A stretch of 64,000 bases of DNA from Minisyncoccota bacterium (GCA_028711065.1 JAQTSY010000005.1:7656-71655), one strand, 5' to 3'; positions 9,150 through 61,863 are shown, counted from the first letter of the stretch. The notes: generated by a model from the letters alone, not told the origin. Numbers and translations: made by a program.

Positions 9150-10322
9150 TTAGAGAATGGTATTTGTCTCGCAGATTTTTTTATAAAGCAGGGCGGAGGG
9201 GCGAACGATACGTTCCATTGTATCATAATTTATTTTCACCAAGCCGAAGCGTTTGGTAAATCCTTCCGCCCATTCGTAGTTATCAAGAAGCGACCAGTAG
9301 AAGAATCCTTTTACATCCGCACCTTGTTCTATCGCCTGATGAACTGCGATAAGATGATCTCTGATGAATTTCCCTCTCTGGCTGTCATTTGCGTCTGCAA
9401 TGCCGTTTTCTGTTATATAGAGAGGTTTTTTGTACTCTTTCAGTTCCAGGAGCACATTTCGCAGTCCGTCCGGATAAACAGTCCATCCCATATCCGTGCG
9501 AGGCAAATTTTCAAGCTTCCCAAATGCAATATGTCGATAATAATTGACGCCGATAAAATCCTGGCACTCCCGGATGCCCTTCAGAAATTTATGATTCCAG
9601 AATTTGCGGGAAAAATTTGCCCGAACATCATTCCACCATCCTCCGCCAGAGCCGAAATCCATATTTTGTTTTGCAATGCCGATCTGGATCGAAGGATTTT
9701 TCTTTTTCATTTCGATGTATGCAAACCGGTGAGATTTCATCAAAATCTTGAGTGCTCTCCAATATTTTAAAATATCCCTTTTGAATGGTGGCCAGCCTCC
9801 GCGAAGATATCCATTCCCAAGCCAGACCATCGGCTCATTCATTGTCATCCAAAATTTCGCTTCGCTTCCAAGTTTTTCCACCACATATGCGCAATATCTG
9901 CCGAAAATTTCCGGTGCTTTTTTATTTTCAAATCCGCCCTTATCCCGAAACCAAAGAGGCAGAGTAAAGTGCCAAAGCGTCACAAAAGGCTCAAGCCCTC
10001 GCGCTTTGAGTGCGTGAAGAACTTTTCGATAATGCTCAATTTCTGCATCATCAAATTTCCCTTCTTCTGGCTCGATGCGGGCCCACTCGATTGAAAATCT
10101 GTGCGTGTTTTGAGAAAGTGATTTCGCAATATCAAAATCTTTTTCGTACAAATTGTAGTGATCGCAAGCTCGCCCGGTAAGAGGCACTTTTTTCTTCCGC
10201 CCAGCTTCAGCCCAATCCACATTCTCAATCCCGCCTTCTACCTGGTAAGAAGCCGTTGCACTCCCCCATAAAAACCCTTTCGGAAATTCTCGCGCTTGCG
10301 GAGCTGAAACATTTTTTTTCAT
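9150..10322 (-). CDS. GH1 beta-glucosidase
   Basis: FLWGSATASYQVEG near the N-terminus, TMNEP and ITENG catalytic motifs, and C-terminal WSLLDNYEWAEGF. The start was set at the internal MKKNVSAP. The 26-aa upstream extension in the ORF track looks spurious. Confidence 0.85.
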   Translation of the reverse strand: MKKNVSAPQAREFPKGFLWGSATASYQVEGGIENVDWAEAGRKKKVPLTGRACDHYNLYEKDFDIAKSLSQNTHRFSIEWARIEPEEGKFDDAEIEHYRKVLHALKARGLEPFVTLWHFTLPLWFRDKGGFENKKAPEIFGRYCAYVVEKLGSEAKFWMTMNEPMVWLGNGYLRGGWPPFKRDILKYWRALKILMKSHRFAYIEMKKKNPSIQIGIAKQNMDFGSGGGWWNDVRANFSRKFWNHKFLKGIRECQDFIGVNYYRHIAFGKLENLPRTDMGWTVYPDGLRNVLLELKEYKKPLYITENGIADANDSQRGKFIRDHLIAVHQAIEQGADVKGFFYWSLLDNYEWAEGFTKRFGLVKINYDTMERIVRPSALLYKKICETNTIL

Positions 10323-16827: not shown

Positions 16828-17066
16828 TTTGTATAAAAAAATAAAGACAAAAAATCCTTCTCGATGAAAGAAGGTGACGAAGAGACGCACGCGCGCACTC
16901 TTTAATCTCACATCCTTTACTCGAGGACTGACGAAACATACTTTCGTGCGCGGTATTCGGACTTCTCTTTTTCAAGAGTTACCGTAGCGGTACTGTGCCG
17001 GAATTACACCGGACTTCCCCAACGCAACGAAATAATTTTTCAAACACAACAATCAAAACCGGAAAC

Positions 17067-52745: not shown

Positions 52746-52855
52746 GATTCTTTGCGGGTCAGGGAGTGTCGGTCGTTACACGACCAGTATCCCGATTCGT
52801 TTTTTCTTTCAGAAAAAAGCTGAATCGGGCTTCGAGTCCCTGGGCCAGGAAACTC

Positions 52856-52919
52856 TTTCCCTACGGGAACAGTATCCCCGATGGATTTTTTAGACGCGCT
52901 CACGCGCTTTAAAAAATAC
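52856..52919 (-). repeat. Copy 1 of a conserved structured repeat module (candidate ncRNA or miniature mobile-element end), downstream of tRNA-Gln
   Basis: Minus strand reads GCCCCGATGAGTA-[TTTTTTAAAGCGCG-TGA-GCGCGTCTAAAAAA]-TCCATCGGGGATACTGTTCCCGTAGGGAAA. The 30-nt 3' block is identical to 61674-61703. It is flanked by antisense copies of a tRNA T-arm (GGGACTCGAAGCCCC). Confidence 0.45.
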
Positions 52920-52991
52920 TCATCGGGGCTTCGAGTCCCTGCCGAAGTAACCCCCGTTACTTCGGGCAGAAAATTTCCTTCGGAAATTTTG

Positions 52992-53062
52992 CTGCGGGTC
53001 AGGGACTCGAACCCCAATAACATCCTCCAGAGGGATGTGTCCTACCATTAGACGAACCCGCA
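52992..53062 (-). tRNA. tRNA-Gln (anticodon CTG)
   Basis: Manual cloverleaf: acceptor TGCGGGT/ACCCGCA (U1-A72, G73, as in bacterial tRNA-Gln), D-arm GTCT-AATGGTA-GGAC, anticodon stem CATCC/GGATG with loop CTCTGGA, T-arm TGGGG-TTCGAGT-CCCTG. No encoded CCA. Confidence 0.75.
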
Positions 53063-53083
53063 ATATTATAAATTCTCTAAAAT

Positions 53084-53139
53084 TGTCCTACCATTAGCCT
53101 GCCCGCGGACGGGCTTTGCCGGCCAGGGACGAACCCGCA
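53084..53139 (-). pseudogene. Partial duplicate of the 5' 25 nt of tRNA-Gln, interrupted by a 31-nt palindromic insert
   Basis: Minus strand: TTGCGGGTTCGTC + CCTGGCCGGCAAAGCCCGTCCGCGGGCAGGC + TAATGGTAGGACA. Compare the tRNA: TGCGGGTTCGTCTAATGGTAGGACA. Confidence 0.45.
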
Positions 53140-53283
53140 ATTCAATTACAGAAACAGAACTAAGCCCATAATACTAAACCAGCTTATACGAAAAATGACG
53201 AAAAATCCAATCCGCTCAAATAAAAACATGTAATCGAGTAAACCCGACTGCACGCTCATTTCCCAGAAGATGATTCTGTTCAC

Positions 53284-53655
53284 CTAAACGGCAACGCTCT
53301 CCCACCTCGAACGCTTGTTCTTCGAACCCGGCGGCCGTCCGCGGCGCGGCTTCGCCGGAAGCACAGGGGCCGAGGTTTCTTCCACGACTGCAGGAGCCGG
53401 CTCTTCCGAAACCGTAGCAGACGAAGTTTCCGGCACACTTGCACCCGAATCTTCAACCACAGTGACCTCCGAATCTGTAGCCGATGCGGTCGGCGAATCC
53501 GGAACTCCAAGAACCGCTCCCCGCCTGCCCTGAATAGAGCAACGCCCCTTTGCGTGGCGATTGCCCCCAGATGCCACGGGTTTGCGGCACAAATCACATG
53601 TACCGTTTGCCAATTGACCCTCCCTCTTGAAATGCGCTCCCATGATTAGGAGCAA
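53284..53655 (-). CDS. Small GC-rich ORF: Cys-containing N-terminus, acidic Ser/Thr/Glu-rich middle, C-terminal AT-hook (PRRGRPPGSKNK), hypothetical
   Basis: The DNA is far GC-richer than its surroundings. All frames are open here, so the coding call is uncertain. The RGRP AT-hook motif favours this frame. Confidence 0.3.
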   Translation of the reverse strand: MLLIMGAHFKREGQLANGTCDLCRKPVASGGNRHAKGRCSIQGRRGAVLGVPDSPTASATDSEVTVVEDSGASVPETSSATVSEEPAPAVVEETSAPVLPAKPRRGRPPGSKNKRSRWESVAV

Positions 53656-53733
53656 GAACCCCTCGTCTCCGGATCGCCAGAGACAGTAAAATCAAGCCAC
53701 TTTATAGCAAATTTTGAGAAAAATGTCGATGCA

Positions 53734-53759
53734 ATAAAACTGGCCGGGGCCAGTTTTAT
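53734..53759 (-). terminator. Perfect 12-bp-stem hairpin (bidirectional terminator) just downstream of pyrG
   Basis: ATAAAACTGGCC-GG-GGCCAGTTTTAT, followed on the plus strand by TGTTTTTATTTTTT. The pyrG stop codon is at 53765. Confidence 0.55.
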
Positions 53760-53764
53760 TGTTT

Positions 53765-55414
53765 TTATTTTTTGGTCTTAAGACACGCTGTGATAAACGC
53801 TGAGAACAGAGGATGCGGAGACAGGGGCCGTGCGAGAAATTCCGGATGGAACTGCGTTCCAAGAAAGAATGGATGCACTGACTCCGGGAGCTCTGCGATT
53901 TCCATAAGTTTTCCTGACGGAGACATACCTGAGAAAACAAGACCTTGTTCTTCGATTTGCGTTATGAATTCAGGATTCACTTCGTAGCGATGACGATGCC
54001 GTTCGCTTATTTTTGCCTTTCCATACGCTTTCATTGCAACAGTGCCTTTTTTTAAATGTGCTGGATAAGAACCCAAGCGCATCGAACCTCCATAATTCCC
54101 ATTCGCGAGAAGGACTTTTTGGTCAGACATAATATCAATAACAGGATATTTTGTTTTTGGATTGATTTCTGTAGTATTCGCATCTTTGAGTCCGACAACA
54201 TTTCGAGCGAATTCCACGACCGCAAGCTGCATCCCGTAACAAAGTCCGAAATATGGAATGCCTTTTTCACGAGCAAAGCGGATAGTTTCGATGACCCCTT
54301 CGATACCGGAAGAACCGAAGCCTCCGGGAACGATAATGCCGTCGTACGCTTCCAATGCTTCAATTTTTAATTTCCCTGTTTCAAAATCTTTCGAATTTAT
54401 CCATGTGAGATTTGCTTTCGCATTCTGCCAATACGCGGAAAACTTCACTGCTTCAATAACAGAAATATACGCGTCAGAAAGAAAGAAATCTCCTGTATCA
54501 AAATATTTCCCAACGACCGCAATATTCAAAGTTGAAGTGCCATTTTTGGTCTTAGCAACGAATTTCTTCCAATCTTTGAGAACGTCTCCTTTCTTCGGCG
54601 CCGTTAGACCGAGATTTTTAAGAATGATCTCTCCGATTTTATCTTTTTCAAAATTGACCGGAACATCATAGACGCTATCAACGTCGGGAGCCGAAATAAC
54701 ATTTTCCTCTGAAATACTGCACCAAATCGCTATCTTTTGCTTTCTCTTTTGATCAAGCGGAATATGGCTTCGCGCAATGATCATGTCCGGCTGAACTCCG
54801 TAGGAATTGAGCTGATGAACAGCATTTTGCGTTGGACGCGTTTTCATCTCGCCGAGTTTTGAAGGGACAGGAAGGTAACTCACCAAAATAAAGAAAACGT
54901 CATGAGGATTTCTAATCTTCAATGTTCGAGCCGCTTCGATGAAAAGAATGTTCTGGTAATCCCCAACCGTTCCGCCGATCTCAATGAGAGAGATATCTGA
55001 TTTATTCACTTTCGCCGAACGAACAATTCTTTCCTTGATTTCATTGGTGATATGCGGAATTGCTTCGACAAATTTACCGCCATAACCCAAGCTACGCTCA
55101 CGGTCGATCACGGTCTTGTAAACCATCCCGCTTGTCATGTAATCCTCAGGGGTCAGATCTTTTTCCATGAAGCGTTCGTAATTTCCCATATCCTGATCGG
55201 TCTCAAGGCCTGAATTTAAAACGAAAACCTCACCGTGTTCAGTGGGGTTCATAGTACCAGCATCGACGTTCAAATACGGATCGATTTTGATGGGATTTAC
55301 ATTGAAGCCTTTGGCTTCAAGAATCCGGCCGATAGAAGATGTGGCAATCCCCTTTCCTACTCCGGACATAACCCCACCTATCACAAATACGTATTTGTGG
55401 TTTTGTTTTTTCAT
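53765..55414 (-). CDS. pyrG: CTP synthase
   Basis: N-terminal YVFVIGGVMSGVGKGIATSS, a C-terminal glutamine amidotransferase domain (GLCYGMQ), 549 aa. Confidence 0.95.
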   Translation of the reverse strand: MKKQNHKYVFVIGGVMSGVGKGIATSSIGRILEAKGFNVNPIKIDPYLNVDAGTMNPTEHGEVFVLNSGLETDQDMGNYERFMEKDLTPEDYMTSGMVYKTVIDRERSLGYGGKFVEAIPHITNEIKERIVRSAKVNKSDISLIEIGGTVGDYQNILFIEAARTLKIRNPHDVFFILVSYLPVPSKLGEMKTRPTQNAVHQLNSYGVQPDMIIARSHIPLDQKRKQKIAIWCSISEENVISAPDVDSVYDVPVNFEKDKIGEIILKNLGLTAPKKGDVLKDWKKFVAKTKNGTSTLNIAVVGKYFDTGDFFLSDAYISVIEAVKFSAYWQNAKANLTWINSKDFETGKLKIEALEAYDGIIVPGGFGSSGIEGVIETIRFAREKGIPYFGLCYGMQLAVVEFARNVVGLKDANTTEINPKTKYPVIDIMSDQKVLLANGNYGGSMRLGSYPAHLKKGTVAMKAYGKAKISERHRHRYEVNPEFITQIEEQGLVFSGMSPSGKLMEIAELPESVHPFFLGTQFHPEFLARPLSPHPLFSAFITACLKTKK

Positions 55415-55424
55415 ATAAATTCGA

Positions 55425-56351
55425 TTAAATTTTCAAATACTTCCTCGTTGCTAAAAAACTTGATACTGCACTAATGAAAATCCCTGACAGCGTAATGATA
55501 AGGAAAATCTGTAAAAAATTCGCTTTATAGTAATCAAAAATATTGATTCCCGTAAAGAAATTCTCTGTCTTCGGCCCAAGCCAAAACGTAATCGGATAAA
55601 AAAGAACAAGGGTAACCAGCGCGGAGATAAGTCCGTAGAAAATTCCCGTAACAACGAACGGTCCCCGGATGTAGCGGTTGCTTGCACCCACAAGCCTCAT
55701 CACGGAAATCTCTTCGCGAGCAGTATAGATTGCCAAGCGAATAGTGTTGAATGTGATAAGCACCGATATAATAACTAAAATAATCGTAAGAGTAAACCCA
55801 AGCTTCTGCCCGGCCTGGATAATGCGGGTAAGCCTATCGATAGCGATTTTATTTTGAAGATAATTTACTTTATCAATAATGGTGTTTCCATCACTTGAAA
55901 GAGCGTTTTTTCCATTAAGGAACGTTGCAATGCCTTCATATTGAGAAGGATCTTTGGCCTTAATATTCAACACTGCACCAAGCGGATTGTCCCCAAGCTC
56001 GTCGAGTGCTTGAAGAGTCAGCTGATCTGTTTGATGTTTCGCTTTGAAATTGGCGAGAGCCTGATCTCGAGAAATGTAATCAATGTGGGCAACTTCCGGC
56101 AAAGCTTCGAGCGTCTTTTTGAGAGAAAGAATGTCGTCTTCGCTCGCCGTTGTTACAAGATAAACATTAATATCAACTTTATTTTGAATCTGAGTGAGAG
56201 TTGATGAAAGGGTTGCAGAAGCGAAAATAAGAGAACCGATTACAAACAAGGTCACGATGAGAACTAGAACCGAAGCGAGAGAAACAAAACCATTTCTCCA
56301 GAAACTGGTGAACCCCGCTCGAAATACTCTCTTTATTTTTGTCCAAATCAT
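55425..56351 (-). CDS. ftsX: Cell-division ABC transporter permease FtsX
   Basis: N-terminal TM, periplasmic domain, C-terminal 3-TM FtsX bundle. It sits immediately downstream of ftsE. Confidence 0.85.
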   Translation of the reverse strand: MIWTKIKRVFRAGFTSFWRNGFVSLASVLVLIVTLFVIGSLIFASATLSSTLTQIQNKVDINVYLVTTASEDDILSLKKTLEALPEVAHIDYISRDQALANFKAKHQTDQLTLQALDELGDNPLGAVLNIKAKDPSQYEGIATFLNGKNALSSDGNTIIDKVNYLQNKIAIDRLTRIIQAGQKLGFTLTIILVIISVLITFNTIRLAIYTAREEISVMRLVGASNRYIRGPFVVTGIFYGLISALVTLVLFYPITFWLGPKTENFFTGINIFDYYKANFLQIFLIITLSGIFISAVSSFLATRKYLKI

Positions 56352-56374
56352 GAATGATTTTTTATATAGTAAAT

Positions 56375-57055
56375 TTATAGAATATATTTGCCATCTTTAT
56401 CGTCTCGAACGATCTTGCCCGTATCCATGGTAATTACCCTGCCTCCCACAGAATCAACCACTCCTCTATTATGGGTGGTGAGAATAACCGTTGTACCGAG
56501 TTCATGGATCTTCTTCAAAATCTGGACAATGTCGAGCGTGTTTATGGGATCAAGATTTCCAGTCGGTTCATCGGCGATCAAAATATCGGGTTGATTGACT
56601 ATCGCCCGAGCGATAGCTACACGCTGTTTTTCCCCGCCCGAGAGCTCTCGCGGGAAATTCAATACTTTATCGCCAAGCCCCACAAGCTCAAGCACATGGG
56701 GAACATCAGCGGCAATTTCTTCATCTGTTCTTCCCGAAGCTTCCATGGCGAACGCAATATTTTCGTAGGCTGTTTTGTCAGGAAGAAGCCTGAAATCTTG
56801 GAAAACTGTGCCGATTCGGCGACGAAGCTGGCTTACCTCTTTTCTCCTGAGCCTCTGAAGATCGACAGATTCGAGAAAAACCCTGCCGGAAGTTGGCCTC
56901 TCTTCAGCAAATATCATCTTGAGAAGGGTCGTTTTGCCCGCGCCAGAATGTCCGACGATAGATACAAATTCTTTAGGGTGTACTTTAAAACTCACATCCG
57001 AAAGAGCCACTGAATTATCGCCATATACCTTCGAGACTTTTTCAAAATATATCAT
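56375..57055 (-). CDS. ftsE: Cell-division ATP-binding protein FtsE
   Basis: Walker A GHSGAGKTT, signature LSGGEKQRVAIARAI, Walker B ILIADEPTGNLD. 226 aa. Confidence 0.9.
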   Translation of the reverse strand: MIYFEKVSKVYGDNSVALSDVSFKVHPKEFVSIVGHSGAGKTTLLKMIFAEERPTSGRVFLESVDLQRLRRKEVSQLRRRIGTVFQDFRLLPDKTAYENIAFAMEASGRTDEEIAADVPHVLELVGLGDKVLNFPRELSGGEKQRVAIARAIVNQPDILIADEPTGNLDPINTLDIVQILKKIHELGTTVILTTHNRGVVDSVGGRVITMDTGKIVRDDKDGKYIL

Positions 57056-57155
57056 GAAAGAAAAGCTTCGCGAGTTAGAGAAGCCCCTTTAGTTTAACAT
57101 GTTTTGCATCCATGCCAAACCTCTTTTATAGACTATCGGAACCGAAAAAATCCTT

Positions 57156-58037
57156 TTAAAGAGCCTTTTCTGCTTCGATAAAAAGATCGAGGTCGCCTGC
57201 AAGCACTTTGTCAGCATTCGAGGTTTCTGCTTCGGTACGATGATCTTTCACCATCTTGTACGGATGGAGCACATACGAGCGAATCTGGCTTCCCCATTCA
57301 ATATCTGTTGAAGAGCTTATTGCCATCCCTTTTTCTTTTTTCTTCCTGTCATCTTCCTGTTTTTTGTAGATCTTCGCTTTTATCATTGCGATAGCTTTCT
57401 CGCGATTTTGCTGCTGGCTTCGCTCGCTCGTTACGTGCACGGAAAATCCTGTTGGAATATAGACTGCACGAACCGCAGTCTCCCGCTTATTCACATTTTG
57501 TCCTCCAGGACCGCCAGCTTTTGCAGTTTCAATTTTAATATCCTGCGCAGGTATTTCGATCTCATCCATTTTTTCGAATTTCGGCAAAACTTCAACAAGC
57601 GAAAAGGAAGTTTGTCGTATGCCTTTTGCACCAAAGGGTGAGATGCGAACGAGACGATGCACTCCCGATTCATTCTTCAGCGTTCCGTACGCCCCCTTCC
57701 CTTCAATCTCGAAGGAAATATTGCGGTATCCGCCGTGGTCATTTTCATTTTGAGAGAGAATTGTCATTCCCCATCCCTTTTTGTCGGCATATTTGGTGTA
57801 CATCTGAAAGAGCATTCCAGAAAAATCTTCCGCGTCATCTCCGCCGGCGCCGGAAAAGATGGTGATGATAGCATCGCCCTTGTCGAATTTCCCCACACCA
57901 GAAAGCTCCTCTTTGAGCGTTTGGATTTCTTTAATGACCACCTGAGCCCGATTTTTGTCAGCCCAAAAATCGGGCTCTGACATACTCGCCTCGAGTTCCC
58001 TTATTTTCTCTTCTTTTGTCTGTTTTATTTCTGGCAT
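57156..58037 (-). CDS. prfB: Peptide chain release factor 2
   Basis: SPF tripeptide (RISPFGAKG), GGQ motif ([10 protein letters not shown]), and the C-terminal RF domain. 293 aa. There is no upstream frameshift segment: a tRNA gene ends 10 nt upstream. Confidence 0.85.
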
Positions 58038-58047
58038 ATTTTTCCGG

Positions 58048-58120
58048 AGCCATCCCCGAGGATCGAACTCGGGACCCCCACTTTACGAAAGTGGTGCTCT
58101 ACCAACTGAGCTAGGATGGC
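58048..58120 (-). tRNA. tRNA-Thr (anticodon CGT)
   Basis: Cloverleaf: acceptor GCCATCC/GGATGGC, D-arm GCTC-AGTTGGTA-GAGC, anticodon stem CCACT/AGTGG with loop TTCGTAA, T-arm CCGAG-TTCGATC-CTCGG, discriminator T. 73 nt. Confidence 0.85.
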
Positions 58121-58127
58121 GATATGG

Positions 58128-58393
58128 AGCCGATGTCCGGGATTGAACCGGAGACCTCGTCATTCATCTATACCTTTATTTCACCTGACTGGGCTTATAA
58201 AAGGATTAGACTGTATCTTGCGCATACCTTTTCGGTTTAGCGTCCCTTGTCAGTCGTTCGAGCGCGTAGAGCGCTACGGTCTTATCCACTTGAATGGACT
58301 TTAACCGTAATTCGGGTTTCAACATTTCGTTTCCAAAATGAAGGGCAATTTTTGTTTACCAATGACGTGCTCTACCAACTGAGCTACATCGGC
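58128..58393 (-). tRNA. tRNA-Thr (anticodon GGT) interrupted by a roughly 193-nt intron between positions 36 and 37
   Basis: 5' exon GCCGATG-TA-GCTC-AGTTGGTA-GAGC-A-CGTCA-TTGGT (58393..58358). 3' exon AA-TGACG-AGGTC-TCCGG-TTCAATC-CCGGA-CATCGGC-T (58164..58128), with CCA encoded at 58127..58125. All stems are perfect once the insert is removed. Confidence 0.7.
58165..58357 (-). ncRNA. Candidate group I self-splicing intron in the tRNA-Thr(GGT) anticodon loop. No ORF.
   Basis: The 5' exon ends in U and the insert ends in G (GGTATAGATG|AA). The insert contains a GAACGACTGACAAGG block (like the P7 5'/R element GUUCAACGACUA) and an AAGATACAGTCTAA block (like the P7 3'/S element AAGAUAUAGUC), with GACTG/CAGTC able to form P7. 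The 193-nt size is near the known minimum (about 205 nt). Confidence 0.5.
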
Positions 58394-58513
58394 TTATAAA
58401 TTCACATGTAAAGAACTACGTAAGAATAGTCTATTTATGCTACATTTTCAATCAATACAAAAACCGCCTTCGGGCGGTTTTCGTACATCTCTCTAAGATG
58501 GAAATCAAAGATT

Positions 58514-61180
58514 TTACTTATCCACTTCCGAGGGTACGACTTTGCAGTTTGCTGTGGCAGTTTGTGTCACTCTGTCACCGTCCCGCACGGGATTCGGCGA
58601 TTCCACTCCATTCCAAGAAGTACATGAGAGTGAGTAGACTTGCGCATTCTGAATCCCTCCACTCACATTAGACGCTCGAGCGTCAGAGAACTTAAATCCT
58701 GGAGGAGGAATGACAACAGCATCTCCTTTTGTCGCAGAGAAATTAGCATTTGTCGAATCGAATCCGACCCCAGTTATGGTGCAGGTTGGAGTATAATTGC
58801 TTTCGAGATTTGTCAGAAGATTACATTGATCGCCTTTCGGAATGAGCGCTGGATCTGCTCTGAATGTCATATTTTGAATCACCGCAGGAGCTGGTCTCGG
58901 TACACATACGTTGTTGACGATAATATGGTCATCAAAATCACACGGAGGTGGTGTTGGGGTTGGCGATGTGGCACAGCTATTGTCTGCTTCGCATCCCGGC
59001 GTCGGGGTAATCTCATCCGTAGGTGTTGGAGTAGGACCGTCATAACTACAAGGTGCTGGTTCTCCTTCGTTGTTAGCATTGGCATCGGTACAGAGATCGT
59101 CATACGTACAGTCTCCCACTTCACCGTTATTGTTCGCCTGTGAATCGGTACAAACATTCTCCGCGGGAACAGTAATAGTAAGATGGAAATCGGTAACCCC
59201 CACTCGTTGTCCCAGATTCACTTTATTCGTCACCCTACCGACAATATCGTTGTCTCCTGGGGTAGTCGGCATATCAAATGGTCCGAAAGAGAATGTGGAC
59301 TGGCTTACGATAAACGAATGTCCCGAGGCTCTTTTTGTTTTCGTCTTGAGTGCTGCCGGCACAGAATTCCCGGGCACGCTCAGAAGTTCCGCTGTAATAT
59401 CTCCAGGAGAGTTTCCGCAAGCAGGGCTGAAGACAGAAAGAAGGACGGTGAATTTCGTACCGTCGGCACTCGGTACCACTGTGCCATATACTGCAGGAGC
59501 GATTTCATGAGCGGTCGCTTTTCCATTTTTCTGATTCACGCTTTCAGTACTATCAACATCAGCCGGCGGCACCCCCAAGCCTGCCTCTACGCTTGCAACA
59601 ATATCTTCCCAGGCTGGTTTTTTGCCTTTTGCAACTTGTTTTGTCGTTGCAGCAAATACTTTCTTCCCATCCACTTTCAGAAAAGTAGCGAGAATGGGTT
59701 TCGATGCTGCCTTCGCCGCCTTCTTTGCCGCTGCAGCATCTTTTCTTGCTTGAATTGCCGCCGCCCTCTCTGCCGCAGTCAGGGCTGCCACATTGGAATT
59801 TCTACTCGCAATTCCATTTACCGCTTTCAGTGAGGGAGACCCGCCAAAGAATACAAGACCTAAAACTCCGACCGCGAAGAGAAGTACAAGTGCTGTTGGT
59901 TCTACTTTTTTCTTGAAGACAGCGATCACAATCAAAATCCCCAGAAGAACGATGCCCCCAACTACCACGATAGGCAGAATAGGCAATCTATTGGCTTCCT
60001 TTATAAGTGCATTTGCCTTTTCCTCATCATAATTGCTCGATAAAGGCTGATTATAAGAAGAAAGAACTGTACCGTGAGAAGAAAGGGTTGCTTCTACCCG
60101 TAAAGCTTTTGCGGCTACGTCTGCTTCAATCTGAACAGCCTGAGCAATAGAATCACTTAAATCTATAGTAGTTGGAGCGTTTTTTCCGACAAGCTCATCT
60201 TTCTCATTAAAAAGTAAGATGCTTAGCTGTGCTGTACCCGTCGCAATACTCTCTCCCGTTTCAATATCATAAGGAACACCGGTAATGTTTGCTACAAGAG
60301 AGATGGTGTCTCCAGGCTGTGCAGAAGTTGTCTTGGCAGTAATCGACTGAATGCTGCCGATATCCCCCGCTACGATGTAGCGAAACGATACTGTCGGAGC
60401 TCTCGCAACGCCACTCTGATCAAGAAAAGAAACGCTTCCTGCATACACCCCACCGGCATAATTAAAAACCGGCAACAAAAGAGTCGCTGTTTTTCCGCTC
60501 TTTGCGGGCAGATCAAGAGGAGTCCCGGTTTGCGTGGTGAGTTCTTTTCCAAGCATTGATTTTTCAAAGATTGAAACGTGAGGGGTAACAGAAATCGCGG
60601 TGGTGCCAGTATTAGAAAGAGCGACAACTAACGAAATTGACTGATCTCTTTTCACTACCGGACCTTCCTGCACGCCAAATTGTCTCTGTCCAATCGCCAC
60701 ATACGCATCAGTCACTTTTGCAAAAGCGCTTCCGCCAGTTACCGTGATGAGAGCATCTTTCCAGCCCATAGGCACGCCACTCTTTAAAAAGTTTTGAATC
60801 TGAATGCCAAGATTGGTACCGCTTATGGCTTCAGGAAGTTTGTAAGAAAAAGGAACACTTCTGACTTCTTGCGCTTTCAACGAAATCGGTCCGAATGTTT
60901 TTGTGTCGTAATTGTCTGTCGGAATTCCATCTTGATAATTCCCCATGAGTGAAATGGTGTAAGAGATTTGAGATACAGCGAATGCGTTGGCATTTACGAT
61001 AGTAAACGTACCAACAACAGTGTCCCCGCTTTTAAAAGAGTCGGAAAGAAGGTTGATATTAGCAACATTCACTTGCGGATTGTCGAGATAGTCGTCAGCA
61101 AAGACAGGAGATGCCGACTGGACAAAAACAGAGCCAGTGACCAAAAGAGAGAGAAGAGATACGAAGAATAGTTTTTTCAT
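58514..61180 (-). CDS. Large (888 aa) surface protein: signal peptide, beta-rich repeats, internal TM pair, Ala/Lys-rich segment, Cys-rich C-terminal domain (hypothetical)
   Basis: MKKLFFVSLLSLLVTGSVFVQSASPVFA signal. Hydrophobic stretch LPILPIVVVGGIVLLGILIVIAVF. C-terminal CTDSQANNNGEVGDCTYDDLCTDANANNEGEPAPCSY.... Confidence 0.45.
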   Translation of the reverse strand: MKKLFFVSLLSLLVTGSVFVQSASPVFADDYLDNPQVNVANINLLSDSFKSGDTVVGTFTIVNANAFAVSQISYTISLMGNYQDGIPTDNYDTKTFGPISLKAQEVRSVPFSYKLPEAISGTNLGIQIQNFLKSGVPMGWKDALITVTGGSAFAKVTDAYVAIGQRQFGVQEGPVVKRDQSISLVVALSNTGTTAISVTPHVSIFEKSMLGKELTTQTGTPLDLPAKSGKTATLLLPVFNYAGGVYAGSVSFLDQSGVARAPTVSFRYIVAGDIGSIQSITAKTTSAQPGDTISLVANITGVPYDIETGESIATGTAQLSILLFNEKDELVGKNAPTTIDLSDSIAQAVQIEADVAAKALRVEATLSSHGTVLSSYNQPLSSNYDEEKANALIKEANRLPILPIVVVGGIVLLGILIVIAVFKKKVEPTALVLLFAVGVLGLVFFGGSPSLKAVNGIASRNSNVAALTAAERAAAIQARKDAAAAKKAAKAASKPILATFLKVDGKKVFAATTKQVAKGKKPAWEDIVASVEAGLGVPPADVDSTESVNQKNGKATAHEIAPAVYGTVVPSADGTKFTVLLSVFSPACGNSPGDITAELLSVPGNSVPAALKTKTKRASGHSFIVSQSTFSFGPFDMPTTPGDNDIVGRVTNKVNLGQRVGVTDFHLTITVPAENVCTDSQANNNGEVGDCTYDDLCTDANANNEGEPAPCSYDGPTPTPTDEITPTPGCEADNSCATSPTPTPPPCDFDDHIIVNNVCVPRPAPAVIQNMTFRADPALIPKGDQCNLLTNLESNYTPTCTITGVGFDSTNANFSATKGDAVVIPPPGFKFSDARASNVSGGIQNAQVYSLSCTSWNGVESPNPVRDGDRVTQTATANCKVVPSEVDK

Positions 61181-61362
61181 TATTTTTTATGAGCTCTTTA
61201 AAAACGCCGACGAGACGTTCTTTTTTTCTCTTTTATTATACCGTGATACCCTACTGGGACAAAGGAAAGCTGTGGAAAGAAAAAAGCTTAGCTGACTTCA
61301 TTTAAGAGCAAAATTGTGCTACTCTCTCGTATGTTCAGGCACAAGATCGCGATATTTAAAAT

Positions 61363-61433
61363 GTCGGTGTAGTTCAATGGTAGAACGAGGGACTCATAAG
61401 CCCTAGACAGTGGTCCGATTCCACTCATCGACA
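61363..61433 (+). tRNA. tRNA-Met/CAT-anticodon tRNA (elongator Met or Ile2; not an initiator by the 1-72 criterion)
   Basis: Acceptor GTCGGTG/CATCGAC, D-arm GTTC-AATGGTA-GAAC, anticodon stem AGGGA/GCCCT with loop CTCATAA, T-arm AGTGG-TCCGATT-CCACT (C at position 55), discriminator A. Confidence 0.7.
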
Positions 61434-61481
61434 CCTTTTTGCGAAAGAGCAGTAAATCTGCTACATTTATATTCCACGAAT

Positions 61482-61553
61482 GCGGCTGTAGTTCAACGGT
61501 AGAACGCTCCCCTGTCACGGGAGAGGTCGTGGGGTCAGCACCCATCAGCCGCG
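61482..61553 (+). tRNA. tRNA-Asp (anticodon GTC) with a non-canonical T-loop
   Basis: Acceptor GCGGCTG/CAGCCGC, D-arm GTTC-AACGGTA-GAAC, anticodon stem CTCCC/GGGAG with loop CTGTCAC, T-arm GTGGG-GTCAGCA-CCCAT (not TTCGAAT-like), discriminator G, CCA encoded. Confidence 0.65.
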
Positions 61554-61556
61554 CCA

Positions 61557-61581
61557 ACAAAAACCCCGAAAGGGGTTTTTC
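61557..61581 (+). terminator. Rho-independent (bidirectional-type) terminator after the tRNA-Met/Asp pair
   Basis: AAAAACCCC-GAAA-GGGGTTTTT perfect hairpin with flanking A and T tracts. Confidence 0.6.
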
Positions 61582-61629
61582 GTTTGGCGCGGCTAGAAAG
61601 CGCGGGACGCTTTCGTGATGGGTGCTGAC

Positions 61630-61704
61630 GCCCCGATGAGTAGATTTTGTCGCGCGAAGGCGCGAACAAAATCTCCATCGGGGATACTGTTCCCGTAGGG
61701 AAAA
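61630..61704 (+). repeat. Copy 2 of the conserved structured repeat module (candidate ncRNA or miniature mobile-element end), downstream of tRNA-Asp
   Basis: GCCCCGATGAGTAG-[ATTTTGTCGCGCG-AAG-GCGCGAACAAAAT]-CTCCATCGGGGATACTGTTCCCGTAGGGAAAA. It is flanked by GGGTGCTGAC (61621-30 and 61722-31), which is antisense to the unusual tRNA-Asp T-arm GTCAGCACCC. Confidence 0.45.
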
Positions 61705-61863
61705 GCACCCGTGGGTGCTGACGACCTTTTGAGCCTAAAATTTGCGAAGCAAAATTTTAGCCAAAAGGTGTACTGCGGCTGTAAGCCGAAGCGCCCATCT
61801 AATTAAAAGCACCCATCAGTCAACCGACCACATTCAAAAATTATTTCCTGCTATAATGAATCA

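What the first reader, a model, noticed from the sequence alone, without database searches (positions are those of the whole stretch)
52750..61740. Conserved structured repeat module after tRNA genes at two loci, each flanked by antisense copies of its own neighbouring tRNA's T-arm
Two intergenic regions, 52746-52990 and 61557-61860, share a roughly 75-nt module lying in the same orientation as the adjacent tRNA genes and just downstream of them (copy 1 on the minus strand after tRNA-Gln, copy 2 on the plus strand after tRNA-Asp). The module has three parts:
- GCCCCGATGAGTA.
- An AT-flanked GCGCG hairpin. The two copies differ in sequence but keep the same fold: TTTTGTCGCGCG-AAG-GCGCGAACAAAA in one, TTTTTTAAAGCGCG-TGA-GCGCGTCTAAAAAA in the other. 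This is compensatory variation.
- A 30-nt identical block, TCCATCGGGGATACTGTTCCCGTAGGGAAA.

Within the module, CCCCGATG can pair with CATCGGGG, enclosing the variable hairpin, and TTCCC-GTA-GGGAA forms a 3' hairpin. Both loci also share terminator-like hairpins with covarying stems: AAAATTTCC-GAA-GGAAATTTT in one and AAAAACCCC-GAAA-GGGGTTTTT in the other.

Most striking, each module is bracketed by two antisense copies of the T-arm of its own neighbouring tRNA. Locus 1 carries GGGACTCGAAGCCC, antisense to a canonical GGGG(C)TTCGAGTCCC arm like that of tRNA-Gln. Locus 2 carries GGGTGCTGAC, antisense to the aberrant GTCAGCACCC T-loop of tRNA-Asp. Conserved sequence, structure-preserving variation and locus-specific complementarity to the adjacent tRNA together point to either a functional structured RNA that pairs with or processes the tRNA transcript, or the ends of a tRNA-targeting miniature mobile element (IS200/605-PATE-like or integrase att-derived). 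I cannot place it in any RNA or repeat family I know.
Basis: seen in the sequence. Interest (0 to 1): 0.8.

Follow-up and report, generated by a model that had tools for sequence, protein, structure and literature searches.

The report
Hairpin element inserted behind tRNA genes
Behind two tRNA genes sits a small, strongly folded DNA cassette, from a family I could not find described, that occurs behind many different tRNA genes in ultra-small (CPR/Patescibacteria) bacteria and is always flanked by forward and reverse copies of its own tRNA's tail; it looks like a miniature mobile element aimed at tRNA genes rather than an ordinary RNA gene.

Summary
The ~75-nt module (52856-52928 and 61630-61703) is the conserved core of a repeat family. 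A covariance model found 19 copies (18 distinct) in this Paceibacteria-type MAG, Saccharibacteria MAGs and metagenome contigs, 17 of them just downstream of a tRNA gene and in one fixed orientation. Each unit, read on the tRNA strand, is: antisense copy of the tRNA T-loop/T-stem (often also the acceptor 3' strand, split by a small hairpin), G, a long bulged hairpin, RTACTG, a short hairpin, then a sense copy of the tRNA 3' end.

- The flanks match the neighbouring tRNA exactly, across six different T-loop heptamers.
- Both core hairpins covary heavily (23 of 25 pairs), with no G-U pair among 415 paired cells.
- Close relatives carry the same tRNA-Gln with two, one or no units.
- There is no Rfam family, no phage or plasmid match, no nearby recombinase and no paper.

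Best reading: a non-autonomous, structure-defined DNA element that inserts at tRNA T-loops, regenerates the tRNA 3' end and stacks up next to the tRNA. It is probably handled as a folded single strand by an unidentified recombinase acting in trans. A structured RNA is not excluded.

The parts
52991..53062 (-). tRNA-Gln(CTG), the target or anchor gene of locus 1. Its T-loop is TTCGAGT and its 3' end is ...TCCCTGACCCGCAGC.
   Evidence: ARAGORN; Rfam tRNA 54.6 bits
52970..52990 (.). Palindromic hairpin h1 (AAAATTTCC-GAA-GGAAATTTT) between the tRNA and the first antisense copy. It has the shape of a bidirectional terminator.
   Evidence: Sequence. Not flagged by the simple terminator scan. Conserved in L017 with a symmetric 1-nt shortening.
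52942..52969 (-). CTGC, an antisense remnant of the acceptor 3' end, followed by side hairpin H3' (CCGAAGTAAC-GGGG-GTTACTTCGG). H3' sits at the acceptor/T-stem junction of the antisense copy.
   Evidence: An equivalent hairpin sits at the same position in every well-preserved unit of other loci. Identical in L017.
52929..52941 (-). R' proximal: CAGGGACTCGAAG, the antisense of the tRNA-Gln T-loop plus T-stem 3' strand, followed by the invariant G.
   Evidence: (I11)
52856..52928 (-). It comprises an 8-bp stem CCCCGATG/CATCGGGG with two bulged bases, a variable AT-flanked GCGCG hairpin, ATACTG, and hairpin TTCCC-GTA-GGGAA.
   Evidence: (96.1 bits)
52844..52855 (-). R*: GAGTTTCCTGGC, a degenerate sense copy of the T-loop end plus T-stem 3' strand. 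It forms a tight palindrome with the next R'.
   Evidence: Sequence, compared with the tRNA 3' end
52830..52842 (-). Second R' (CAGGGACTCGAAG), belonging to unit A.
52771..52829 (-). Core A, a diverged unit: stem CCCGATTC/GAATCGGG, a short AT hairpin, ATACTG, and hairpin GTCG-TGTAA-CGAC. It is orthologous to the single unit of relative L017.
   Evidence: (74.8 bits)
52753..52765 (-). Copy 3: TCCCTGACCCGCA, a sense copy of the T-stem 3' strand plus acceptor 3' strand of tRNA-Gln. It is the distal direct repeat and lies 7 nt before the start codon of the ComF-like gene.
61482..61556 (+). tRNA-Asp(GTC) with the aberrant T-loop GTCAGCA and an encoded CCA. It is the anchor gene of locus 2.
   Evidence: 58.3 bits
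61559..61580 (.). Palindromic hairpin h2 (AAAAACCCC-GAAA-GGGGTTTTT).
   Evidence: it forms the apex of the long hairpin
61585..61615 (+). TGGCGCGGCT, the antisense of the acceptor 3' strand plus CCA, followed by side hairpin H3' (GAAAGCG-CGGGA-CGCTTTC).
   Evidence: The same H3' type (AGAAAG..GGGA..CTTTCG) occurs at L004 tRNA-Ser and L009 tRNA-Val.
61616..61629 (+). R' proximal: TGATGGGTGCTGAC, the antisense of the aberrant T-loop plus T-stem 3' strand of tRNA-Asp.
   Evidence: (I7)
61630..61703 (+).
   Evidence: 84.3 bits
61704..61722 (+). R* (AGCACCCG) followed directly by the second R' (TGGGTGCTGAC). Together they form a tight palindrome.
61723..61788 (+). Core A', a diverged unit: stem ACCTTTTG/CAAAAGGT, GTACTG, and hairpin CGGC-TGTAA-GCCG.
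   Evidence: 63.1 bits
61808..61819 (+). Copy 3: AGCACCCATCAG, a sense copy of the T-loop end, T-stem 3' strand and start of the acceptor strand of tRNA-Asp. It is the distal direct repeat.

Best explanation
It is a non-autonomous, structure-defined DNA repeat element specialised for the 3' ends of tRNA genes in Patescibacteria.

**Anatomy.** A conserved scaffold carries two kinds of part:
- side hairpin H3';
- a ~60-75-nt core with one long bulged hairpin and one short hairpin, joined by RTACTG.

This scaffold is interleaved with segments copied from the neighbouring tRNA.

**Proposed mechanism.** The element enters at the T-loop of the tRNA gene, around positions 56/57. The inserted block carries or recreates the T-loop-to-3'-end segment, so the tRNA stays intact. 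The old 3' end is pushed downstream and becomes a direct repeat. New blocks enter on the tRNA-proximal side, which builds arrays. The inverted copy of the tRNA tail pairs with a sense copy, so that the single strand folds into a forked hairpin that imitates the double-stranded target. The two core hairpins, with their conserved unpaired bases, are the handles for a recombinase encoded elsewhere.

**Shown:** the anatomy, the tRNA linkage, the target-matched flanks, Watson-Crick-only covariation, presence/absence among relatives, and arrays.

**Inferred:** entry at the T-loop, the single-stranded folded intermediate, and a trans-acting recombinase.

**Unexplained:** how the antisense segment comes to match each new tRNA.
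For: **Family and tRNA linkage**
- A covariance model built from 14 units finds 19 (18 distinct) in 124 kb.
- 17 lie just downstream of a tRNA gene, on the opposite strand as modelled. One lies upstream of tRNA-Glu beside a duplicated tRNA 5' half. One sits at a contig end.
- The tRNAs are Gln, Asp, Arg(GCG), Arg(TCG), Pro, Gly, Ser, Glu, Val and Thr.

**Flanks copy the neighbouring tRNA**
- The right flank is an exact 8-14-nt copy starting at T54 in 14 of 15 units.
- This covers six different T-loop heptamers, including the aberrant GTCAGCA.
- The left flank is an antisense copy of 7-20 nt in 12 of 15 units.
- L004 tRNA-Ser carries three perfect 20-mers, TTCGAATCTCGCCTTCTCCG.

**Direct repeats of a tRNA 3' end** around inserted DNA are the known signature of integration into tRNA genes (PMC9897764).

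**Presence and absence at tRNA-Gln(CTG) downstream of CTP synthase**
- The window has two units and L017 has one.
- L020, L021 and L022 have none, and also lack the antisense copy and the 3' fragment.
- L021 has the identical T-arm and acceptor 3' end.

**Arrays grow next to the tRNA**
- In window versus L017, and in L002 versus L004 (syntenic), the shared unit is distal and the extra unit is proximal.
- L009 tRNA-Val carries two blocks that are identical as far as the contig shows.

**DNA-like helices**
- 95.8% of cells are paired.
- 23 of 25 pairs show double changes, in 119 compensatory cells.
- No shuffle out of 500 reaches these values.
- There are 0 G-U pairs among 415 paired cells, and only 4 A-C/C-A cells, which would be G-U on the other strand.
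- Two bulged positions are conserved.

**Spread between lineages.** Core identity between a Paceibacteria-type MAG and a Saccharibacteria MAG, at different tRNAs, is 84%. That is as high as within genomes.

**Topology.** The order sense copy, apical hairpin, antisense copy, rest of element, sense copy is what integration of a forked single-stranded hairpin predicts, by my inference from the CTXphi attP(+) mechanism (PMC3089051).
Against: - **No recombinase or transposase.** None lies in window 1-30 kb or 49-64 kb, nor next to elements in L002, L003, L004 or L006. Window 30-49 kb was not scanned.
- **No free or full-length form.** Nothing was found in IMG/VR, phage or plasmid collections.
- **No recent jump seen.** No two copies at different tRNAs are identical, so recent transposition between tRNAs is not shown.
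- **Matching of the element to each tRNA is unexplained.** If the element brings its own tRNA tail, a jump to another tRNA should destroy that tRNA. Yet every antisense segment matches its present neighbour. This needs tRNA-specific lineages, target copying, or palindrome-templated correction.
- **The extra unit B is awkward for the block model.** The window and L017 share an identical tRNA, h and H3' but differ in the core beside them. This fits poorly with whole-block integration.
- **Polarity is ambiguous.** A deletion between the 13-nt repeats in L017 would look the same as an insertion in the window.
- **In-place selection is possible.** Orthologous units keep their hairpins through multiple compensatory changes. 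That could reflect selection for a host function at the locus.
Confidence: 0.5

Rival explanations
1. It is a structured non-coding RNA. There are two versions.
- It is the 3' trailer of the tRNA transcript. Its antisense segment can pair with the tRNA 3' end, and the downstream sense copy releases it.
- It is a convergent RNA that ends at the shared bidirectional hairpin. Its two ends pair into an acceptor/T-stem 'minihelix' that mimics the neighbouring tRNA.

Either version would act in tRNA processing or quality control, or as a decoy.
For: - The folding is extremely non-random and covariation is heavy.
- A conserved scaffold with interleaved, locus-specific segments complementary to a nearby RNA resembles guide RNAs.
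- The hairpin between the tRNA and the element has A- and T-tracts on both sides, as expected between convergent transcripts.
- The tRNA-strand fold is on average 2.6 kcal/mol more stable than the opposite strand.
- Hairpins are maintained between orthologous units.
Against: - There are no G-U pairs in 415 paired cells on the modelled strand, and only 4 candidates on the other. If about 5% of pairs were G-U, which is my rough figure for RNA helices and was not measured here, about 20 would be expected.
- Neither element has a promoter-like site. In locus 1 the convergent RNA would have to start inside the ComF-like gene.
- The acceptor part of the 'minihelix' is missing or incomplete in about half of the units.
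- Relatives with the same tRNA lack the element.
- There is no Rfam family.
Confidence: 0.2
2. No dedicated enzyme is involved. The palindromic tRNA T-arm and the palindromic terminator provoke template switching during replication or break repair. This gives direct-inverted-direct triplications of the tRNA tail. The hairpin core is copied from other loci through T-loop microhomology. Hairpin arms are then kept perfectly complementary by quasi-palindrome correction, not by selection.
For: - The direct-inverted-direct arrangement has junctions at two palindrome centres, the terminator loop and the T-loop.
- The R*/R' junctions are tight palindromes.
- The palindrome runs past the tRNA end into the spacer.
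- Stems are Watson-Crick only and change on both sides quickly, even between close relatives whose flanks are identical.
- No mobile-element gene is nearby.
Against: - Orientation and junction positions are the same in 17 of 19 units.
- The conserved bulged bases and the RTACTG / TGTAA motifs are not 'corrected' away.
- The same core is 84% identical across phylum-level lineages.
- No core-less triplication was seen at the other tRNAs examined.
Confidence: 0.15
3. The units are scars: the attL/attR-proximal leftovers of larger integrative elements or prophages that entered these tRNA genes and were later deleted.
For: - Direct repeats of tRNA 3' ends and stacked partial copies occur, for example three TCTTAGCGG copies in L004.
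- This is typical of tRNA integration hot spots (PMC9897764).
- Tandem tRNA-Gln copies with different acceptor stems occur in L006.
Against: - Every unit has the same internal junctions. R' is followed directly by G and the long hairpin, with no heterogeneous deletion end points.
- No unit contains any gene remnant.
- The module was not found in IMG/VR, phage or plasmid collections.
- No integrase fragments lie nearby.
Confidence: 0.1

Closest known systems
Genomic islands, prophages and ICEs that integrate into tRNA genes through tyrosine integrases (T-loop sublocation; Reiter 1989 and Williams 2002 from my own knowledge; PMC9897764)
   Same: The DNA is inserted at the 3' part of a tRNA gene. 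The tRNA is regenerated. A partial 3' copy is left as a direct repeat at the far end. Repeated events stack remnants.
   Different: The element is only ~100-250 bp and has no integrase or cargo. It has a conserved folded core. It carries a third, inverted copy of the tRNA tail. One scaffold is found at ten or more different tRNAs, whereas an integrase normally has one target.
CTXphi attP(+), the forked single-stranded hairpin recombined by XerCD (IMEX; PMC3089051)
   Same: Two copies of the target-like site lie in opposite orientation, separated by a short spacer, so the single strand folds into a mimic of the duplex target. The predicted integrated order, sense-apex-antisense-rest-sense, matches what is seen here.
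   Different: The target is a tRNA T-loop, not dif. The 'rest of the genome' is a 60-75-nt hairpin cassette. No phage genes are present. No Xer involvement has been tested.
Integron attC sites
   Same: These are imperfect palindromes recognised by structure. The base-paired box is conserved, extrahelical bases are conserved, and the terminal structure varies in sequence and length. Covariation is Watson-Crick only.
   Different: There are no RYYYAAC/GTTRRRY boxes, no cassette ORFs and no IntI. The context is always a tRNA gene.
Bacterial MITEs, REP/BIME elements and IS200/IS605-derived PATEs
   Same: They are small, non-autonomous, hairpin-rich intergenic repeats with a patchy distribution among relatives.
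   Different: The inverted repeats here are not element-specific but copied from the local tRNA. There is no fixed short target-site duplication. The two hairpins are dissimilar. tRNA linkage and orientation are strict.
CRISPR repeat duplication by Cas1-Cas2, and casposon insertion at tRNA 3' ends (from my own knowledge)
   Same: Arrays grow at one pole, and each insertion duplicates a ~15-30-bp palindromic target segment.
   Different: Here the inserted units are conserved and the duplicated segment is the tRNA tail. No Cas1 was seen. This resemblance was not tested.

Membership tests
Any Rfam RNA family | Score at or above the family's gathering threshold | tested here: not met
   Only tRNAs and one AdoCbl riboswitch pass in the window. 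E-value mode on locus 1 and on L006, L007 and L009 gives only chance-level hits.
IS200/IS605-derived PATE | Two similar subterminal hairpins (LE and RE) bound by one TnpA | tested here: not met
   The long bulged hairpin (8-bp base plus an AT-rich extension) and the 4-5-bp hairpin with loop TGTAA/GTA share no sequence or shape.
IS200/IS605-derived PATE | Insertion 3' of a fixed tetra- or pentanucleotide, without target duplication or inverted repeats | tested here: not met
   The flanks are 7-20-nt inverted and direct copies of the tRNA tail.
IS200/IS605-derived PATE | tnpA or tnpB present in the genome | not testable with these tools
   None in the ~45 kb of the window that was scanned. The whole genome is not available.
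tRNA-integrating element (integrase att sites) | One complete tRNA and one partial 3' copy as direct repeats bounding the inserted DNA | tested here: met
   13 nt in locus 1, 12 nt in locus 2, and up to 20 nt or more elsewhere. In L017 the repeat extends past the tRNA end.
tRNA-integrating element (integrase att sites) | Integrase gene inside the element, next to one att site | tested here: not met
   The units are 100-250 bp with no ORF. The neighbours are housekeeping genes.
tRNA-integrating element (integrase att sites) | Occupied and empty sites among related genomes | tested here: met
   tRNA-Gln has 2, 1, 0, 0 and 0 units in the window, L017, L020, L021 and L022.
Integron attC | R''/R' boxes RYYYAAC ... 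GTTRRRY | tested here: not met
   The stem bases are CCCCGATG, ACCTTTTG, CCCGATTC and similar. No AAC/GTT boxes are present.
Integron attC | Conserved extrahelical bases and a variable terminal structure | tested here: met
   There are two conserved bulged positions next to the 8-bp stem. The distal hairpin varies from 17 to 47 nt.
CTXphi-type folded attP(+) | Two target-like sites in opposite orientation that pair in the single strand | tested here: met
   The tRNA tail and its antisense copy pair across the apical hairpin in the ssDNA fold. The same holds at all loci.
CTXphi-type folded attP(+) | Recombination by Xer or another tyrosine recombinase on single-stranded DNA | not testable with these tools
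   Needs biochemistry or read-level junction data.
Classical MITE | Element-specific terminal inverted repeats and a fixed short target-site duplication | tested here: not met
   The inverted repeats differ at each locus and equal the local tRNA sequence. The repeat length varies from 7 to 20 nt or more.
Structured RNA gene (generic) | Covariation that includes G-U intermediates and is asymmetric between strands | tested here: not met
   0 G-U among 415 paired cells on one strand, and 4 possible on the other.

The most novel reading that the evidence does not exclude
The element is a re-targetable mobile cassette. A conserved scaffold (H3' plus core) has its tRNA-matching segments written from the target at each insertion. 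It moves as a folded single strand, DNA or an RNA copy, that recognises tRNA genes by base-pairing or structural mimicry of the T-arm/acceptor helix, not through a sequence-specific protein. Uptake of single-stranded DNA by the competence machinery of these bacteria could provide the route of entry. This would be a new class of guide-bearing or target-copying mobile element that exploits the most conserved genes in the cell.
Probability: 0.2. Interest if true: 0.9.

Novelty: new variant of a known kind. Interest (0 to 1): 0.7.

Why it matters
- **A rare mobile element in reduced genomes.** Patescibacteria have tiny genomes and are thought to carry few mobile elements. A family that colonises the 3' ends of many different, mostly single-copy tRNA genes without breaking them would be one of their few widespread mobile DNAs. 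It may also be a source of tRNA-locus rearrangement, such as duplicated tRNA halves and tandem tRNA copies.
- **An unusual design.** The scaffold is constant, the segments in between match the target, and a third copy of the target tail is inverted. This is unlike standard transposons and integrase sites. It points to recombination guided by structure or by pairing, which is of interest for mechanism and possibly for tools.
- **Practical consequences.** These units break short-read assemblies: a Logan contig ends inside H3'. They also create tRNA fragments that can confuse annotation.

Tried and rejected
**Known families and collections**
- Rfam gave no family in gathering or E-value mode.
- An IMG/VR pattern scan gave five hits. 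All are chance hairpins with no covariance-model hit.
- BLAST against phage and plasmid collections gave no match.
- Seven literature searches found no description of the element.
- L001 (Lewinellaceae), L005 and L008 from the pattern scans are chance matches, in a coding region or a plain hairpin.

**Hypotheses considered by reading the sequence, and dropped**
- Hammerhead or other small ribozyme: CGATGAG lies inside a covarying helix, and the junction strands do not fit.
- Intron-containing, split or minihelix tRNA gene on the opposite strand: there are no D or anticodon arms, and the left arm is a perfect complement of the 3' strands, not a copy of the 5' strands.
- Retro-copy of mature tRNA: the copies lack CCA unless the gene encodes it, and they include spacer beyond the tRNA end.
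- Inverton: orientation is the same in all 19 copies.
- IS91 (GTTC target) and cutting at a TTCGAA restriction-like site: several T-loops are not of that sequence.
- IS110-type bridge RNA: the matching segments are 12-20 nt of one region, not two short half-site guides, and there is no recombinase.

**Other dead ends**
- Pfam scans of ~45 kb of the window and of four related loci found only housekeeping genes.
- A look-up of the ComF-like protein returned only a second assembly of the same sequence.


Full report
**1. The observation**

The two intergenic regions were read directly.
- ARAGORN and Rfam place tRNA-Gln(CTG) at 52991-53062(-) and tRNA-Met plus tRNA-Asp(GTC) at 61363-61435 and 61482-61556(+).
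- The 30-nt block is found exactly twice, with none expected in shuffles.
- The repeat finder reports the module as a 77-nt, 82% complementary inverted pair (I1). It also reports the antisense T-arm matches (I7, I11).
- Aligning the whole regions, locus 1 plus strand against locus 2 minus strand, shows they are homologous over ~250 nt. Each holds two units, not one.
- As single strands they fold with z = -8.4 and -13.0 against dinucleotide shuffles.

**2. Anatomy**

Read on the strand of the tRNA, each locus is:

tRNA; short palindromic hairpin h with A- and T-tracts; antisense copy of the acceptor 3' strand; small side hairpin H3'; antisense copy of the T-stem 3' strand and T-loop (R'); an invariant G; core; sense copy of the tRNA tail (R).

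The core is:
- an 8-bp stem with two conserved bulged bases, continued by an AT-rich hairpin of variable sequence and length;
- the motif RTACTG;
- a 4-5-bp hairpin with loop TGTAA or GTA.

In tandem arrays every unit has its own R'/R pair, and the R*/R' junction between units is a tight palindrome. Exact window coordinates were checked and are listed under parts.

**3. It is a family, and it is tied to tRNA genes**

- A gapped pattern from the core found two Saccharibacteria MAGs in the species-representative genomes.
- The same kind of pattern found four true contigs in JGI metagenomes. The other hits are chance.
- A covariance model built from 14 units finds 19 units, 18 distinct, in 124 kb of window plus loci.
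- 17 lie immediately downstream of a tRNA gene and always in the same relative orientation.
- One lies upstream of tRNA-Glu, next to an ~80-nt duplication that includes the tRNA 5' half. One is at a contig end.
- The tRNAs are Gln, Asp, Arg(GCG), Arg(TCG), Pro, Gly, Ser(TGA), Glu, Val and Thr(GGT).
- The window comes from a MAG labelled Candidatus Pacebacteria/Paceibacterota. The family therefore spans at least two deep Patescibacteria lineages.

**4. The flanks are copied from the neighbouring tRNA**

- In 14 of 15 units the sequence after the core is an exact 8-14-nt copy of the neighbouring tRNA, starting at T54.
- This covers six different heptamers: TTCGAGT, GTCAGCA, TTCGATT, TTCGAAT, TCCGATT and, by eye in L017, TTCAATC.
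- In 12 of 15 units the other flank is a 7-20-nt antisense copy.
- L004 tRNA-Ser shows three perfect 20-mers: direct, inverted, direct.
- The left arm is a perfect complement of the tRNA's 3' strands. For example, CAGGGA faces TCCCTG, whereas the tRNA-Gln T-stem itself has wobble pairs. So it is an inverted copy, not a copy of the tRNA's 5' strands.
- The copies lack CCA unless the gene encodes it, and they often include a few bases of spacer. They were therefore copied from DNA or a primary transcript, not from mature tRNA.

**5. Structure-preserving evolution without G-U**

- On the model alignment, 95.8% of 433 cells are paired.
- 23 of 25 pairs have changes on both sides, in 119 compensatory cells.
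- No shuffle out of 500 reaches these values, and slid controls collapse.
- There is not one G-U pair among 415 paired cells. Only four A-C/C-A cells could be G-U on the other strand.
- Ordinary RNA helices carry a few percent G-U; this figure is from my own knowledge and was not measured here.
- Two bulged positions and the motifs RTACTG and TGTAA are conserved and are not 'corrected' into pairs.
- The invariant TAC of the short hairpin loop is complementary to the invariant GTA of RTACTG. Because neither varies, this possible 3-bp contact cannot be tested.
- The tRNA-strand fold is on average 2.6 kcal/mol more stable, which is a weak hint only.
- Taken together this looks like hairpins that must pair as DNA, or on both strands, with protein-recognition features. 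It looks less like a typical RNA.

**6. Insertional behaviour**

*tRNA-Gln downstream of CTP synthase in relatives (CTP synthase identity 77-87%):*

| Source | State of the tRNA-Gln locus |
|---|---|
| Window | two units |
| L017 | identical tRNA, h, H3' and R', but one unit |
| L020, L021, L022 | tRNA-Gln with no unit, no antisense copy and no 3' fragment; L021 has the identical T-arm and acceptor 3' end |
| L016, L018, L019 | no tRNA-Gln at this position |

- L017's unit is the counterpart of unit A. The distal loop is the same, and the 8-bp stem and the short hairpin differ at three and four pairs, all compensated.
- L017 also carries an element at an intron-less tRNA-Thr(GGT). There the direct repeat runs at least 10 nt, and by eye about 35 nt, past the tRNA end. 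The window has no element at that tRNA.
- The tRNA-Arg(GCG) loci of L002 and L004 are syntenic. L004's single unit corresponds to L002's distal unit, and L002's extra unit is tRNA-proximal. This is the same polarity as window versus L017.
- L009 tRNA-Val has two tandem blocks that are identical as far as the contig shows. L004 tRNA-Arg is followed by three TCTTAGCGG fragments.
- Core identity is as high between phyla as within genomes, 84% for window B versus L003 at tRNA-Pro.
- All this fits an element that is gained and lost, accumulates next to the tRNA, and spreads between lineages.

**7. What it is not**

- It matches no Rfam family.
- It is absent from the phage and plasmid collections and from IMG/VR, apart from chance hairpins.
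- No integrase, transposase, Rep or reverse transcriptase lies within ~45 kb of the window or beside elements in four other loci.
- Neither element has a promoter-like site, and the h hairpins fail the simple terminator scan.
- Literature searches found nothing on it.

**8. Mechanism**

*Shown:* a conserved scaffold with interleaved copies of the local tRNA tail in the order direct, inverted, direct; fixed orientation; Watson-Crick-only hairpins with conserved bulges; presence/absence among relatives; arrays.

*Inferred:*
- Insertion happens at the T-loop. The sense copy on the distal side typically starts around position 57, and the antisense copy ends exactly at the complement of T54.
- Each event leaves an intact tRNA and pushes the former tail downstream. 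This is the known outcome of integration into tRNA genes (PMC9897764).
- The order sense, apical hairpin, antisense, remainder, sense is what I derive for a forked single-stranded hairpin integrating by exchange of one strand pair, as in CTXphi (PMC3089051). Here the 'remainder' is just the two-hairpin core.
- I therefore commit to a non-autonomous hairpin cassette recombined as a folded single strand by a trans-acting recombinase.

*Confidence:* about 0.75 that this is an insertional DNA element, and about 0.3-0.35 for the folded single-strand mechanism. The stated combined confidence is 0.5.

*Main open problems:*
- It is unexplained how the antisense segments come to match each tRNA. The candidates are tRNA-specific lineages, copying from the target, or palindrome-templated correction.
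- The extra unit B sits beside an h/H3'/R' segment identical to that of L017. This fits a local insertion with a 13-nt duplication better than integration of a whole block.
- A deletion in L017 cannot be excluded.

*Rivals:* a structured RNA, template-switch rearrangement without a dedicated enzyme, and scars of larger elements. They are set out separately with their tests.

**9. Comparison and novelty**

- It behaves like a tRNA-integrating element in its direct repeats, regenerated tRNA, hot-spot stacking and empty sites.
- It resembles attC and CTXphi attP(+) sites in being defined by fold, not sequence.
- It is not a member of any tested family. It fails the defining features of PATEs, classical MITEs, attC sequence boxes and integrase-bearing islands.
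- I rate it a new variant of a known kind: a miniature, non-autonomous, tRNA-targeting element.
- There is a real chance, about 0.2, that the target-matching segments reflect a re-targetable, pairing-based mechanism that would be new in kind.

Noticed in passing
window 58125-58393 (-): A second tRNA-Thr (anticodon GGT) is interrupted by a ~193-nt insert after the anticodon (about 58163-58355). It lies 4 nt upstream of tRNA-Thr(CGT), and ARAGORN missed it. Rfam gives only a sub-threshold group I intron hit (12.9 bits, E 0.95). Relatives L016, L017 and L018 have the same tRNA without the insert. Divergent group I introns at 36/37 of tRNA-Thr(GGU) in Patescibacteria are described in PMC13011429.
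   Followed up: partly
window 53084-53139 (-): A duplicated 5' fragment of tRNA-Gln (positions 1-27) lies upstream of the complete gene. It is split by a 30-nt GC-rich hairpin (53098-53127) that is unique in the window. After it comes a 20-nt spacer containing TATAAT, 6 nt before the complete tRNA. L017 has no such fragment. Its tRNA sits where the window's fragment sits.
   Followed up: partly
window 61527-61545 (+): tRNA-Asp has a non-canonical T-loop, GTCAGCA in place of TTCRANY, yet scores 58 bits as a tRNA. The same heptamer appears in both neighbouring units, so the tRNA and the element copies have been homogenised. The direction of copying is unknown.
   Followed up: partly
L006 1791-2330: Two tandem tRNA-Gln copies precede the element. 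The first is complete, with acceptor TGGGGGA/TCCCCCA. The second lacks a normal D-arm and has a different acceptor 3' strand (TCCGGCA). The antisense copy matches the second tRNA, and the distal sense copy matches the first, including 4 nt of its flank. This suggests that element-linked tRNA segments move between strains.
   Followed up: partly
L004 about 9780-9845 and L006 about 2005-2040: The same 14-nt insert, AAAYGTACTCATGG, interrupts the distal sense copy of the T-loop at two different tRNAs (Arg and Gln) on two contigs. It may be a sub-family marker or part of the element's end.
   Followed up: no
L009 1850-2070: One unit lies upstream of tRNA-Glu, between an ~80-nt direct repeat made of the tRNA's 5' flank plus its 5' half up to the anticodon loop. 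It is the only unit not downstream of a tRNA, and it suggests that the anticodon loop is sometimes used.
   Followed up: partly
L010 1-30: A Logan assembly of the same organism breaks exactly inside the H3' hairpin of locus 1. These palindromes fragment short-read assemblies, so copy numbers in MAGs are probably underestimated.
   Followed up: no
window 16903-17044 (-): An AdoCbl (cobalamin) riboswitch passes the Rfam threshold (60.5 bits). It lies just upstream of a 639-aa ORF with no Pfam match.
   Followed up: no
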